The notes under the pieces were generated by a model that made no database searches, had not been told where the DNA came from, and saw nothing but the letters and a program-made list of their open reading frames with translations. This document shows, piece after piece, positions 21,875-24,749 of a stretch of 64,000 nucleotides of DNA. Each line of letters starts with the position of its first letter. The stretch's first letter is position 1. Source of the stretch: Escherichia phage 236Ecol005PP; sequence record PP434423.1; one strand, 5' to 3'. Position numbers and translations under genes: made by a program.

Positions 21875-22335
21875 AGAGAGTCTCTTAATAGGTTTAACAC
21901 ATCAATAAATTCAGCTTCGGTTAGTATTGTATCATCTTTTGTTAGACCACTAGCCATGCTGTGCTTCAAAACTTTTCCTTTCGAGGCTTGTAATGCATCG
22001 CGAAAGCCCTTGTTTTGGAACGCTGCTTCAAAATATGCATTTGTGTATAATTCTTTCCACGCCGGAGAGTATCTTGAAAACGGAACTCCAAGCCAAAAGA
22101 GGGTCCCACGGTCCTGAGCTCTAGCATAAGACCTTCCAGCTTGTTGGGCGGCAAGCCCGGATAACCCAAATATACGACGCTGTTGTTCAACATTTTTCAC
22201 CTTGCATCCTTGGAGGAATCCTTCGAGACCTCCAAATTGAATACCATCCATAACGAAAGGCCATTGGGCGAAATTACTTAATGCGCATGATGGCCATCTA
22301 AAATTGCTTCTTATCTCTAACTCAGACATTTTCAA
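21871..22335 (-). CDS. 30.3: NADAR (YbiA-like) domain protein
   Basis: SNFAQWPF...DG...EGFLQGCK pattern matching the NADAR signature. Confidence 0.6.
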   Translation of the reverse strand: MKMSELEIRSNFRWPSCALSNFAQWPFVMDGIQFGGLEGFLQGCKVKNVEQQRRIFGLSGLAAQQAGRSYARAQDRGTLFWLGVPFSRYSPAWKELYTNAYFEAAFQNKGFRDALQASKGKVLKHSMASGLTKDDTILTEAEFIDVLNLLRDSL

Positions 22336-23844: not shown

Positions 23845-23874
23845 ATACTATTACAAAGGAACCATACTGTAAAC
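23845..23874 (-). promoter_or_regulatory. T4-type early promoter
   Basis: GTTTACA, 17 nt, TAGTAT. Confidence 0.4.
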
Positions 23875-23893
23875 AACTTTGTGCAATCTTTGG

Positions 23894-23923
23894 AAAATAA
23901 AAAAGGACTCCCGAAGGAGTCCT
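23894..23923 (-). terminator. intrinsic terminator after 30.9
   Basis: AGGACTCC-TTCG-GGAGTCCT hairpin followed by T-run on minus strand. Confidence 0.6.
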
Positions 23924-23927
23924 CAAC

Positions 23928-24104
23928 TTATGCTTTCTGCTTACCAAAACGAGAAGCATCATCTCGAAGAACCGCACGTGCTCGGCGCATGATCTTCTCA
24001 ACAGTTTGATTGATACGAGAGTTCGACCCACGCTTGTAACCAGCGCGTTTAGAATCACCAACTTTCTTTTCAACTGCTTTCTTTGCTTTAGCTTGTTTTG
24101 CCAT
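23928..24104 (-). CDS. 30.9: small basic protein
   Basis: ORF-track ORF trimmed to the ATG giving 58 aa (MAKQAKAKK...). Confidence 0.5.
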   Translation of the reverse strand: MAKQAKAKKAVEKKVGDSKRAGYKRGSNSRINQTVEKIMRRARAVLRDDASRFGKQKA

Positions 24105-24500
24105 TATAAATTCTCTTTTAAATGAAAATGCAGGACTTATTGGCATTGCCTGCGCAAGCCCTCAAGGGGAACATAGGTTTTGGATATTTAACGACAGGAT
24201 AACCATAAACCCGTCATCATACCTTATAGCTCTTATCTGTTGCACACCGTTAGCTTAAAGGTTCCGGGTCCGATTTCTCGAGGATAAGATATATACTGAT
24301 GGATATATAGGCCTTGAGGCGTACTCCCGATTGGCCATCACCTCGGGGTAGCATGCACTTGCCGCTATAAGAATAACATTCAAGAGGTACACCGTAAAAC
24401 TGCCGGGGTCTTAAAACTATAATGATTCGCAAATCATTAATCAGACAGTTCGACGGCTCCTCGATTTTAGCTCACACTAAGGCAGTGACTCTCCAATAAA

Positions 24501-24749
24501 TTACTTCAGTGTTACCACAAAGTGACGAACTGCTTTTCGTGCGGCAGAAGCCAGAGGCTTAGCATACTTAAGTTCATCTTTTTCCTGGAGCTCAGCGGCT
24601 AATGCAGTTTGAGCAGGATTCAGATGTTTGAAATAACGCAGGATTTCAAGAGCTTCGGCTTCAACATCAATAGATGCGCCATAGTTTTCGTGACCATTAT
24701 TCCATGCGTTTCGTTGCAGTTCAAGAGCGTGTTGTAATTGTTTAATCAT
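24501..24749 (-). CDS. rIII: rIII lysis-inhibition accessory protein
   Basis: 82-aa ORF, T4 rIII length and synteny next to gene 31. Confidence 0.85.
   Translation of the reverse strand: MIKQLQHALELQRNAWNNGHENYGASIDVEAEALEILRYFKHLNPAQTALAAELQEKDELKYAKPLASAARKAVRHFVVTLK

What the first reader, a model, noticed from the sequence alone, without database searches (positions are those of the whole stretch)
24105..24500. About 400-bp GC-rich non-coding island between 30.9 and rIII
Between the rIII stop and the 30.9 start there are about 396 bp with no convincing ORF; the only 60-codon frame starts with TTG and lacks an RBS. GC content is about 49 percent over 24241-24360, against the roughly 35 percent typical of this genome. 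The island contains several exact inverted repeats, including a long-range pair (CCCTCAAGG near 24159 and CCTTGAGG near 24312) and a 7-bp hairpin AATGATT-CGCA-AATCATT near 24421. T-even genomes are densely coded, so an island of this size and composition suggests a structured RNA, a long regulatory UTR, or a remnant of foreign DNA.
Basis: seen in the sequence. Interest (0 to 1): 0.55.

Follow-up and report, generated by a model that had tools for sequence, protein, structure and literature searches.

The report
New structured RNA in T4-like phages
The GC-rich spacer between phage genes rIII and 30.9 holds a 149-base non-coding RNA domain that folds into a four-way junction locked by a loop-loop "kiss"; it is kept in about 430 T4-like phage genomes, is absent from T4, T2 and T6, matches no catalogued RNA family, and has no known function.

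Summary
In detail: rIII and 30.9 are 396 nt apart, no ORF is conserved, and GC peaks at about 49% against 35.9% for the window.

The GC peak is a discrete 149-nt cassette, window 24223-24371 on the minus strand, in the same sense as the flanking genes. T4 lacks it. T2 and T6 carry an unrelated 44-nt cassette at the same point.

The cassette encodes a structured RNA:
- a closing helix P0 and a four-way junction (P0/P1/P3/P4);
- a 6-bp kissing interaction between loops L2 and L3, seen as six different Watson-Crick versions;
- a 3' three-way domain (P4/P5/P6).

Covariation support is strong: 96-98% of cells are paired, 28 pairs show compensatory changes, and no shuffle reaches these values. G.U outnumbers A.C by 47 to 2, so the sense-strand RNA is what is selected.

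It matches no Rfam 15 family, tRNA or E. coli sequence. About 410 phage genomes carry one copy downstream of rIII. About 21 others (Pseudotevenvirus, Slopekvirus, JC221) carry a divergent copy after uvsY/uvsY.-2, where no gene follows on that strand. This argues against a leader specific to 30.9.

Best reading: a new, self-contained non-coding RNA domain that binds a partner. Its function is unknown.

The parts
24223..24371 (-). Complete RNA cassette, 149 nt: closing helix P0 plus the 135-nt core. It lies within the roughly 153-nt segment that T4 lacks.
   Evidence: Alignments with T4, T2 and T6. P0 covaries: the innermost variable pair is A-U in 13 sequences and G-C in 13. MI ranking supports the same pairs.
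24230..24364 (-). Core of the RNA, matching covariance model R1 over positions 1-135 (164.8 bits). Helices in window coordinates: P1 24361-24363 with 24310-24312; P2 24343-24352 with 24319-24330; P3 24303-24309 with 24290-24296; P4 24283-24289 with 24231-24237; P5 24278-24281 with 24270-24273; P6 24265-24269 with 24244-24249.
   Evidence: RNAalifold and pair counts. Covariance-model searches. Single copy in the window.
24365..24371 (-). P0 5' strand, CUUAUAG. The C at 24364 extends the helix by pairing with the G at 24230.
   Evidence: In the second sub-family the C-G pair is replaced by G-C.
24223..24229 (-). P0 3' strand, CUAUAAG.
24335..24340 (-). Loop L2 segment UGAUGG, one partner of the kissing interaction.
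   Evidence: 100% paired in 28 sequences, with 3 of 6 pairs covarying. Six distinct Watson-Crick versions across 21 sequences.
24297..24302 (-). Loop L3 segment CCAUCA, the other partner of the kissing interaction.
24176..24217 (-). M2, an H-type pseudoknot: S1 is AUGACGGG/CCUGUCGU, S2 is GGUU/AACC, and the third loop is A-rich (UAAAUAUCCAAA). Present in all rIII-30.9 spacers examined, T4 included.
   Evidence: 82.6% of cells paired against 37-50% when the partner is slid. Support is moderate.
24153..24172 (-). M3 hairpin, GUUCCCC-UUGA-GGGCUUGCG.
   Evidence: Conserved as GUNCCC-loop-GGGCUUG with a variable loop, with or without the core, and also found at the second locus.
24110..24153 (-). 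Hairpin GCAGG...CCUGC followed by a U-rich tract (24130-24153), then a hairpin that sequesters the 30.9 ribosome-binding site (AUUUUC/GAGAAU, 24110-24129).
   Evidence: Sequence and comparison across genera. No formal test was made.
24413..24438 (-). T-even-specific hairpin AAUGAUU-UGCG-AAUCAUU followed by AUAGUUUU.
   Evidence: Identical in T4, T2 and T6. Absent from other genera. Too little variation to test (one loop substitution seen, L064).
24472..24488 (-). M1 hairpin UCAC-UGCCUUAGU-GUGA, just after the rIII stop codon.
   Evidence: Recurs with stem changes in Klebsiella, Yersinia and JC221 contexts. Inspected by eye only.
24501..24749 (-). rIII, the upstream gene, co-oriented with the RNA.
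   Evidence: PHROG 1457, E = 4.7e-44.
23928..24104 (-). Gene 30.9, the downstream gene: a small basic protein of unknown function.
   Evidence: PHROG 1427, E = 2.3e-31. The N-terminus MAKQAKAK is conserved.
23903..23924 (-). Intrinsic terminator that ends the ...rIII-30.9 transcription unit.

Best explanation
Window 24223-24371 (minus strand) encodes a self-contained, autonomously folding non-coding RNA domain. It belongs to a previously uncatalogued family found in T4-like phages of Enterobacterales.

**Shown**
- It is transcribed in the sense of the flanking genes.
- Its fold is a closing helix P0 and a four-way junction (P0/P1/P3/P4). A 6-bp loop-loop kiss joins the P2 arm to the P3 hairpin. 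A 3' three-way domain (P4/P5/P6) completes it.
- The invariant nucleotides cluster in unpaired strands: J1/2 (AAG.GCAU), the P6 loop (GA.CC..GCUAA) and J6/4 (GCAAC).
- Each genome has exactly one copy, always at the 3' end of an operon. The copy lies either between rIII and 30.9, or after uvsY.-2 with no gene behind it.

**Inferred**
- In this window it has no promoter or terminator of its own, so it is made as part of the ...31-rIII-30.9 transcript.
- At the second locus it may also be made from its own late promoter.
- The helices and the kiss are a scaffold that presents the conserved junction and loop nucleotides as a binding surface for a partner. The partner could be a protein, another RNA copy or a small ligand.
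- The RNA therefore acts as an independent module, either in trans or on the fate of its own transcript. It is not a leader dedicated to 30.9.
- It is accessory: T4, T2 and T6 do without it.
For: **Structure**
- 21 distinct sequences (A4): 98.3% of cells paired, 19 of 39 pairs with compensatory changes, 0 of 500 shuffles as good, and 29-42% paired when the partner is slid.
- With P0 and the kiss added (A7, 28 sequences): 95.8% paired and 28 of 50 pairs compensatory. The top mutual-information pairs are exactly these pairs.
- With the second sub-family included (A11): 97.6% paired, 28 of 39 pairs compensatory, and a covariation score of 0.56 against 0.05-0.09 when slid.
- The kiss is at least 6 Watson-Crick pairs in all 21 sequences, in six different versions. 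Non-cognate L2/L3 combinations average 3.4 bp.

**Strand**
- 47 G.U cells against 2 A.C cells.

**Not coding**
- The 27-codon ORF is cut to 4-14 codons or frame-shifted in several members. Every frame carries stop codons. There are no PHROG hits for the island's ORFs.

**Selection**
- Core identity exceeds that of the flanking genes. Klebsiella phage: 96% against 74% (rIII) and 79% (30.9). Erwinia phage Cronus: 81% against 66% and 59%.
- 38 of 135 positions are invariant across both sub-families, and 24 of those are unpaired.

**Autonomy**
- The cassette is present or absent between 98%-identical flanks.
- It lies before or after module M2 in different genera.
- A second locus follows uvsY.-2, with convergent uvsW.1/uvsW and a shared terminator behind it. 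Covariance-model scores there are 64-77 bits.
- There is one copy per genome: 401 records gave 401 places.

**Expression context**
- rIII is reported to be transcribed from early, middle and late promoters (PMC9409239).
- No promoter-like or terminator-like site was found inside 24105-24500.
- At the second locus a late-promoter-like motif, TATAAATA or CATAAATA, puts the predicted start on the first base of P0 in JC221 and mtp5 (the consensus is from my own knowledge).
Against: - There is no expression, processing or binding data of any kind.
- Thermodynamic stability is unremarkable: z = -0.14 for the core and -1.99 for the whole spacer.
- At the main locus the RNA always precedes 30.9, so a cis effect on 30.9 in those phages is not excluded.
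- The family is phylogenetically narrow, limited to T4-like phages of Enterobacterales. Some of the invariance may therefore reflect shared ancestry or recent exchange.
- The A11 alignment was fitted to the model, which inflates its pair counts somewhat. A4 and A7 are plain MAFFT alignments.
- The late-promoter argument rests on only three to five sequences, and on CATAAATA variants whose activity is unknown.
Confidence: 0.55

Rival explanations
1. Cis-acting regulatory or protective element of its own mRNA. It could be a riboswitch-like or protein-binding aptamer that sets translation of 30.9, whose ribosome-binding site sits in a hairpin. Alternatively it could be a compact, xrRNA-like fold that blocks ribonucleases and stabilises the 3' part of the operon transcript.
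For: - It is always sense-oriented and sits 70-190 nt upstream of 30.9 in all 20 IMG/VR loci and the annotated phage records checked at the main locus.
- It has a weak, A/U-rich closing helix like a riboswitch P1.
- Its invariant nucleotides lie in junctions.
- The 30.9 ribosome-binding site lies in a conserved hairpin.
- Both loci are at operon 3' ends, where protection from decay would matter.
Against: - At the second locus no gene follows on the same strand.
- At the main locus other modules (M2, M3, M4) lie between the RNA and the ribosome-binding site. Their order varies, and they are present without the RNA, as in T4.
- No conserved alternative pairing with flanking sequence was found. 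The one candidate fails the covariation test.
- There is no match to any riboswitch model.
Confidence: 0.25
2. Self-assembling RNA. The L2 and L3 loops pair between molecules ('hand in hand'), so the RNA forms dimers or rings. Precedents are phi29 pRNA and the ROOL/GOLLD nanocages. The assembly, rather than the monomer, would be the functional unit.
For: - The two loops covary in six versions.
- The P1-P2 arm (about 13 bp plus an internal loop) is much longer than the 7-bp P3 arm. An intramolecular kiss therefore needs a sharp bend (inference).
- Covarying intermolecular kissing loops are documented for natural RNAs (PMC12286853).
Against: - Covariation cannot tell intramolecular from intermolecular pairing.
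- The internal loop between P1 and P2 could supply the bend.
- No oligomer data exist.
- T4-type DNA packaging needs no RNA (established knowledge).
Confidence: 0.1
3. A new self-cleaving or processing ribozyme that cuts the polycistronic transcript between rIII and 30.9, or that releases the downstream modules.
For: - The fold is complex, with invariant unpaired nucleotides.
- It lies inside polycistronic transcripts of a phage.
- Small ribozymes are common in phage genomes (general knowledge).
Against: - No hit to any ribozyme model, even at E = 10.
- 135-149 nt with 38 invariant positions is large for a self-cleaver.
- T4, T2 and T6 express the same genes without it.
Confidence: 0.06
4. Not an RNA function. 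The element could be a small protein-coding gene, a DNA-level element such as an ssDNA hairpin or a protein-binding site, or a neutral piece of horizontally acquired DNA.
For: - Many GenBank records annotate a 'hypothetical protein' over it.
- Its GC content is above the genome average.
- Its distribution is patchy.
Against: - The ORF is not conserved.
- Substitutions are compensatory in eight helices, including a long-range loop-loop pair.
- The 47:2 ratio of G.U to A.C shows that one strand is selected as a single strand, in the sense of transcription.
- It is conserved better than the neighbouring genes.
Confidence: 0.03

Closest known systems
phi29-type packaging RNA (pRNA, Rfam RF00044)
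   Same: A phage-encoded RNA of about 120-170 nt. Its 5' and 3' ends form a closing helix, it has a multi-helix junction, and two loops have complementary sequences that covary between related phages.
   Different: No sequence or model similarity: no Rfam hit at E <= 10. pRNA has a three-way junction, and its loops pair between molecules on the portal of a phi29-type motor. T4-type phages package DNA with TerS/TerL and no RNA (established knowledge). Here the junction is four-way, and whether the kiss is intramolecular or intermolecular is unknown.
Orphan 'ornate' structured RNAs (ROOL, GOLLD, OLE and similar comparative-genomics motifs)
   Same: Found by covariation and of unknown function. 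Their folds are complex, with kissing loops that covary, and ROOL and GOLLD are often phage-associated (PMC12286853; PMC2864571).
   Different: Those RNAs are 400-800 nt long and come from other lineages. None matches here. This RNA is 149 nt and confined to T4-like phages of Enterobacterales.
Riboswitch aptamers built on a four-way junction with a tertiary loop contact (cobalamin, SAM-I)
   Same: A closing P1-like helix, a four-way junction, a long-range loop contact, conserved junction nucleotides and sense orientation upstream of a gene at the main locus.
   Different: No model match. No expression platform was found. The distance and the intervening modules vary. The second locus has no downstream gene.
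PeSL cassettes of T4-type phages (promoter-early stem-loops; PMC2839356, PMC4122927)
   Same: Small intergenic modules that mark insertion/deletion and replacement points between closely related T4-type genomes. The cassette site here holds three alleles: window, T2/T6 and T4.
   Different: A PeSL is a terminator-like stem-loop plus an early promoter (TTTACW-N17-TAYWAT). No such promoter lies in 24105-24500. The cassette is a 149-nt multi-helix RNA. A PeSL-like terminator plus promoter does lie just after 30.9, at 23845-23924.
T4 gene 32 mRNA leader pseudoknot and other translational operators (for module M2 only)
   Same: A small H-type pseudoknot in a T4 intercistronic leader, followed by A/U-rich sequence.
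   Different: No sequence relation, and no known binding protein. M2 is a neighbour of the finding, not part of the cassette.

Membership tests
Any Rfam 15 family (4227 covariance models) | Covariance-model score reaching the family's gathering threshold | tested here: not met
   No hit at E <= 10 on either strand of 24223-24371; the only hit inside the island is a mir-1275 chance match (17 bits, gathering 71) on the neighbouring spacer at 24156-24232. Related spacers and the second locus gave only spurious sub-threshold hits outside the RNA (Atu_C8, snoU85).
tRNA / tmRNA | Cloverleaf or tmRNA detected by ARAGORN | tested here: not met
   0 genes in the whole window.
Riboswitch | Conserved aptamer-like fold supported by covariation | tested here: met
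Riboswitch | Constant position in the 5' leader of a functionally coherent set of genes | tested here: not met
   At the main locus it is always before 30.9, but at 70-190 nt and with variable modules between. At the second locus no gene follows on that strand.
Riboswitch | Expression platform with conserved, mutually exclusive pairing | tested here: inconclusive
   The only candidate (core CCUCAAGG with M3 CCUUGAGG) is not conserved or compensated. No systematic search for alternative folds was made.
Riboswitch | Specific ligand binding | not testable with these tools
   Needs in-line probing or ITC.
phi29-type pRNA | Homology to RF00044 | tested here: not met
phi29-type pRNA | Closing helix, junction and two covarying complementary loops | tested here: met
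   This is a resemblance in architecture only.
phi29-type pRNA | Intermolecular loop pairing, and binding to a phi29-type portal and ATPase | not testable with these tools
   T4-type phages have no such motor (established knowledge). Oligomerisation needs experiment.
Known self-cleaving ribozymes (hammerhead, twister, twister-sister, hatchet, pistol, HDV-like, hairpin, VS, glmS) | Match to the class model | tested here: not met
Known self-cleaving ribozymes (hammerhead, twister, twister-sister, hatchet, pistol, HDV-like, hairpin, VS, glmS) | Site-specific self-cleavage | not testable with these tools
   Needs an in vitro transcript assay.
PeSL cassette | Stem-loop immediately followed by an early promoter (TTTACW-N17-TAYWAT) | tested here: not met
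   No promoter-like site in 24105-24500. Consensus taken from PMC4122927.
Small protein-coding gene | Reading frame conserved among homologues, or a family match | tested here: not met
   ORF truncated or shifted in L007, L009, L010, L022, L024 and L076. No PHROG hit.
RNase P RNA-like | Significant similarity to E. coli M1 RNA | tested here: not met
   One shared 10-mer. Local score was reached by 103 of 1000 shuffles. No Rfam hit.

The most novel reading that the evidence does not exclude
The RNA may be the founding member of a new functional class of phage RNA. One version is a protein-free, self-assembling scaffold built through intermolecular L2-L3 kisses. Another is an RNA decoy or aptamer that captures a host factor, such as a defence or RNA-decay protein. 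In either version it would be carried as an exchangeable accessory cassette, which would explain one copy per genome, two alternative loci, alternative cassettes at the same site in T2 and T6, and absence from T4.
Probability: 0.2. Interest if true: 0.85.

Novelty: new member of a known kind. Interest (0 to 1): 0.68.

Why it matters
T-even phages are among the most thoroughly annotated genomes in biology. Even so, this locus holds a complex-fold RNA that matches no family in Rfam 15, appears in none of the papers found, and is mis-annotated as a 'hypothetical protein' in many GenBank records.

It offers three things:
- **A new RNA fold.** It has a four-way junction, a covarying kissing loop and 24 invariant unpaired nucleotides, and at 149 nt it is small enough for structure determination.
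- **A natural genetic system.** Near-isogenic phages differ only by this cassette: the window-type phage has it, T2 and T6 have a 44-nt cassette, and T4 has none. Its function can therefore be tested directly by allele swaps.
- **A wider pattern.** T4-like phages appear to keep a movable set of small structured RNA modules (the core, M1, M2, M3) at operon 3' ends. This layer of their biology has not been described.

If the RNA binds a host factor or self-assembles, it would add an RNA-based accessory function to a phage group in which such functions have so far been mainly protein-based.

Tried and rejected
- **Known RNA families.** An Rfam 15 scan at E <= 10 found nothing in the cassette and only a mir-1275 chance match on the adjacent spacer. 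The Atu_C8 and Phe_leader hits are the terminator after 30.9. Related spacers and the second locus gave only spurious sub-threshold hits.
- **tRNA or tmRNA.** None in the window.
- **RNase P RNA resemblance.** I recalled shared motifs (GUGCAACAGA, GAUGGCC, CAAGGCC). Tested against E. coli rnpB, they are not significant and not collinear.
- **Host origin.** No blastn match in 5,426 E. coli genomes.
- **Coding.** The ORFs are not conserved. Pfam (rIII, 30.9, 30.8 and 30.7) returned only the 30.8 and 30.7 gene families; PHROG gave nothing for the island's ORFs.
Not conserved.
- **Own promoter or terminator in this window.** None found. By eye I found no MotA box or TATAAATA motif upstream of the cassette at the main locus.
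- **PeSL identity.** Rejected, because there is no early promoter.
- **Antisense target.** Complementarity of the conserved loops to other minus-strand transcripts of the window is at chance level.
- **Bacterial copies.** Four exact-pattern hits in 185,579 genomes, none confirmed by the covariance model.
- **More distant homologues.**
  - A looser pattern in IMG/VR returned 71 new loci. It gave only a 10.7-bit match in four contigs, which I treat as noise.
  - RB49-, RB43- and other rIII/30.9 loci had no hit with the filters off.
  - The second sub-family was found only by blastn with divergent members as queries.
- **gp30.9 as a clue.** No Pfam match and no similarity to any solved structure.
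- **Literature.** Seven searches found no description of this RNA. The supplements of the 10,000-candidate viral RNA survey (PMC10690425) are not held, so inclusion there cannot be excluded.
Full report
**1. Context**

The window comes from a Tequatrovirus (T4-like phage). The best matches to 24050-24550 are 99% identical Escherichia, Shigella, Salmonella and Yersinia T-even phages.

All genes around the finding lie on the minus strand. In order they are cd, 31.2, 31.1, 31, rIII (24501-24749) and 30.9 (23928-24104). An intrinsic terminator follows at 23903-23924, and then an early-promoter-like site.

**2.

- The rIII-30.9 gap is 396 nt (24105-24500).
- GC is 0.492 over 24240-24359, against 0.359 for the window. 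Only 0.8% of 135-nt windows are as GC-rich as the core.
- The only long ORF is a 60-codon TTG frame.

**3. The 'island' is a cassette**

T4 has a 244-nt gap at this locus. The window aligns with T4 at about 98% identity on both sides of an extra segment of about 153 nt.

T2 and T6 carry an unrelated 44-nt segment at the same point, directly after CTCTTGAATGT. The site therefore has at least three alleles among T-even phages.

The covariance model finds no copy in T4, T2 or T6, and one copy in the window.

**4. Distribution**

- In the phage collection, 408 of 50,697 records contain the 138-nt query (24229-24366), with 409 places in all. They include Escherichia, Shigella, Salmonella, Yersinia, Klebsiella, Enterobacter, Citrobacter, Serratia, Erwinia, Raoultella and Kosakonia phages.
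- Of about 995 records that match the spacer, 179 carry most of the island.
- In the annotated records checked, the element lies between rIII and the 30.9 homologue. These cover Gaprivervirus, Kanagawavirus, Karamvirus, Muldoonvirus, Roskildevirus, Tegunavirus and Klebsiella phages.
- Among 46 distinct rIII loci from IMG/VR, 20 contain it. It always starts 11-137 nt after the rIII stop codon and lies before 30.9.
- Exact-pattern scans of metagenomes returned only T4-like contigs that the model confirms. Scans of 185,579 bacterial genomes returned four chance matches that the model rejects.
- E. coli genomes have no match.

**5. It is a structured RNA**

*Plain MAFFT alignment, 21 distinct sequences.* RNAalifold predicts six helices.
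- 98.3% of cells form standard pairs.
- 19 of 39 pairs show changes on both sides.
- No shuffle out of 500 reaches these values.
- When the 3' partner is slid by 1-3 columns, pairing falls to 29-42%.

*Closing helix P0.* Reading the flanks showed a closing helix. In the window it is CUUAUAGC paired with GCUAUAAG.

*Kissing interaction.* Reading the loops showed a 6-bp pairing between the P2 loop (UGAUGG) and the P3 loop (CCAUCA).

*Alignment of 28 sequences including flanks.*
- 95.8% of cells are paired and 28 of 50 pairs are compensatory.
- The kiss is paired in 100% of sequences, and three of its six pairs covary.
- An unbiased mutual-information ranking puts exactly these pairs on top.

*Strand.* G.U cells outnumber A.C cells 47 to 2. 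One strand is therefore selected, and it is the strand transcribed with rIII and 30.9.

*Thermodynamics.* Folding energy alone would not have flagged the element: z = -0.14 for the core.

**6. It is not coding and not a known family**

- The internal 27-codon ORF (MANREYAS...) is cut to 4-14 codons, frame-shifted or extended in several members. All six frames contain stop codons in every sequence.
- The island's ORFs have no PHROG match.
- Rfam 15 gives nothing in the cassette at E <= 10 (the only island hit is a mir-1275 chance match on the adjacent spacer). ARAGORN finds nothing.
- A resemblance to RNase P RNA that I recalled from memory proved insignificant when tested.
- No paper found by seven searches describes it.
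- Several GenBank records annotate a hypothetical protein over it.

**7. A second locus changes the interpretation**

blastn with the two most divergent members as queries picked up partial matches elsewhere.

The covariance model confirms full-length members, at 64-77 bits and E about 1e-12 to 1e-16. They occur in Yersinia phage JC221, Enterobacter phage EC-F2, Cronobacter phage GAP161, Enterobacter phage phiEap-3 and Klebsiella phage mtp5. Twenty-one records carry this form.

In these phages the RNA follows uvsY, uvsY.-2 and a small ORF on the same strand. Behind it lie 200-400 nt of further non-coding sequence, then a bidirectional terminator, then the convergent uvsW.1 and uvsW genes. No gene follows on the RNA's strand.

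These members share few paired nucleotides with the window's copy, yet they keep every helix:
- P0 is AAUUGUAG/CUACGAUU in EC-F2, GAUUAG/CUAAUU in JC221 and GUAGUAG/CUACUAU in mtp5.
- P4 is UUCGUG/CACGAA.
- P6 is ACCUG/CAG.
- The terminal C-G pair is replaced by G-C.
- The kiss is UGCAUU/AAUGCA or UUGUAUU/AAUACAA.

With these sequences included, 97.6% of cells pair and 28 of 39 pairs are compensatory. The covariation score is 0.56, against 0.05-0.09 for slid controls. This alignment was fitted to the model, which favours the structure somewhat.

Across all 21 sequences the kiss has six distinct Watson-Crick versions and is never shorter than 6 bp. Non-cognate loop combinations average 3.4 bp.

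Thirty-eight of 135 positions are invariant. Twenty-four of those are unpaired, and they cluster in J1/2 (AAG.GCAU), the P6 loop (GA.CC..GCUAA) and J6/4 (GCAAC).

A query that detects both sub-families finds 401 records and 401 places, so each genome has a single copy at one locus or the other.

**8. Neighbouring modules**

The spacer is a mosaic of small conserved hairpins:
- **M1**, at 24472-24488.
- **M2**, at 24176-24217. This is an H-type pseudoknot with an A-rich third loop. It is present in every phage examined, T4 included. Support is moderate: 82.6% paired against 37-50% when slid.
- **M3**, at 24153-24172.
- **A hairpin that sequesters the 30.9 ribosome-binding site**, at 24110-24129.

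The core lies before M2 in some genera and after it in others. M1-, M2- and M3-like modules also follow the core at the second locus. None matches Rfam.

**9. How it most likely works**

*Shown.* The element is a sense-strand RNA. It has a conserved multi-helix fold and a covarying tertiary or quaternary contact. It is generally conserved better than the flanking genes (not in Yen9-01): for example 96% against 74-79% for a Klebsiella phage, and 81% against 59-66% for Erwinia phage Cronus. It occurs once per genome, at operon 3' ends, at either of two loci.

*Inferred.*
- In this window it has no promoter or terminator of its own, so it is made as part of the rIII transcript. rIII is reported to be expressed from early, middle and late promoters (PMC9409239).
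- At the second locus a TATAAATA or CATAAATA motif lies upstream. It would place the start on the first base of P0 in JC221 and mtp5. The T4 late-promoter consensus is from my own knowledge. The sample is small, so I hold this loosely.
- The second locus has no downstream gene, and the distance and order relative to 30.9 vary. I therefore favour a self-contained RNA module whose helices present the invariant junction nucleotides to a partner (0.55).
- A cis role on its own transcript, in translation or stability, is the main rival (0.25).
- Intermolecular kissing (self-assembly) and self-cleavage are possible but untested.
- Non-RNA explanations are very unlikely.

**10. Comparison with what is known**

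- In architecture it most resembles phi29 pRNA: a closing helix, a junction and two covarying complementary loops. It is not homologous to pRNA, and T4-type packaging does not use RNA.
- It also resembles riboswitch aptamers built on a four-way junction with a loop contact. It fails the gene-association test and shows no expression platform.
- It is not a PeSL, because it has no early promoter.
- I file it as a new family within the known kind 'conserved structured non-coding RNA of phages with unknown function'.

**11. Limits**

- No expression or biochemical data exist.
- The family is phylogenetically narrow.
- Covariance-model E-values are rough.
- I could search whole collections only with exact patterns or blastn, not with the covariance model. 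More distant members and further loci may therefore exist.

Noticed in passing
window 24176-24217 (minus strand): M2 is an H-type pseudoknot with an A-rich third loop. It is conserved in every rIII-30.9 spacer examined, including T4, and M2-like elements also occur at the uvsY-uvsW locus. It matches no Rfam family.
   Followed up: partly
L251 (T6) about 2618-2661; L252 (T2), same position in the spacer; L053, L055, L064, L066: T2, T6 and others carry an alternative 44-50-nt cassette (..CAUGCGUCAGAAAAGUGUUAUCUGUGUAAGUCUUG..) exactly where the window has the 149-nt RNA. Related small modules with covarying stems (CAGA/UCUG against CAGC/GCUG) sit elsewhere in the spacers of L070, L078 and L097.
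   Followed up: partly
window 24153-24172 and 24472-24488 (minus strand): Two small hairpins, M3 (GUNCCC-loop-GGGCUUG) and M1 (loop UNCCUUAGU), recur across genera in shuffled order. They also follow the RNA at the second locus, which suggests a movable set of RNA modules.
   Followed up: partly
window 24110-24129 (minus strand): The 30.9 ribosome-binding site lies in a hairpin (AUUUUC/GAGAAU). Other genera have a different sequence with the same arrangement (UUCUCC-AAAAU-GGAAGA), which points to structural control of 30.9 translation.
   Followed up: no
window 23845-23924 (minus strand): A terminator (GAGGACUCC-UUCG-GGAGUCCUU plus a U run) is followed directly by TTTACA-N17-TAGTAT. This looks like a PeSL-type terminator plus early-promoter unit between 30.9 and 30.8.
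   Followed up: no
L001 1703-1885; L003 2504-2629; L253 647-781; L254 503-679: GenBank records annotate 'hypothetical protein' CDSs across the RNA (U115_218, XNO93669.1, COW86c_228, JC221_170). The reading frames are not conserved, so these are probably mis-annotations.
   Followed up: yes
L254 about 815-935; L258 and L256, homologous stretch (alignment A10 columns 255-345): A further conserved non-coding element of about 100 nt (GGCGUAAUCUUUUGCG...GGUGAUUGAUAAGAUACCUUCGA...) lies downstream of the RNA at the uvsY-uvsW locus in JC221, phiEap-3 and mtp5. It matches no Rfam family.
   Followed up: no
window 23928-24146 (minus strand): The 30.9 ORF can be extended to 72 codons, and T6 and U115 annotate it that way. 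Only the 58-codon form starting MAKQAKAK at 24104 is conserved across genera.
   Followed up: partly
L110 101-195, L115 10232-10326, L119, L124 (IMG/VR 3300045988 contigs): An identical 95-nt stretch in four unrelated viral contigs gives a weak full-length match to the model (10.7 bits; E = 0.3-8). It lacks the P1-P2 arm. I treat it as noise.
   Followed up: partly
window 22000-22200: A second stretch with GC of 0.47-0.52 shows in the composition profile. It was not examined.
   Followed up: no
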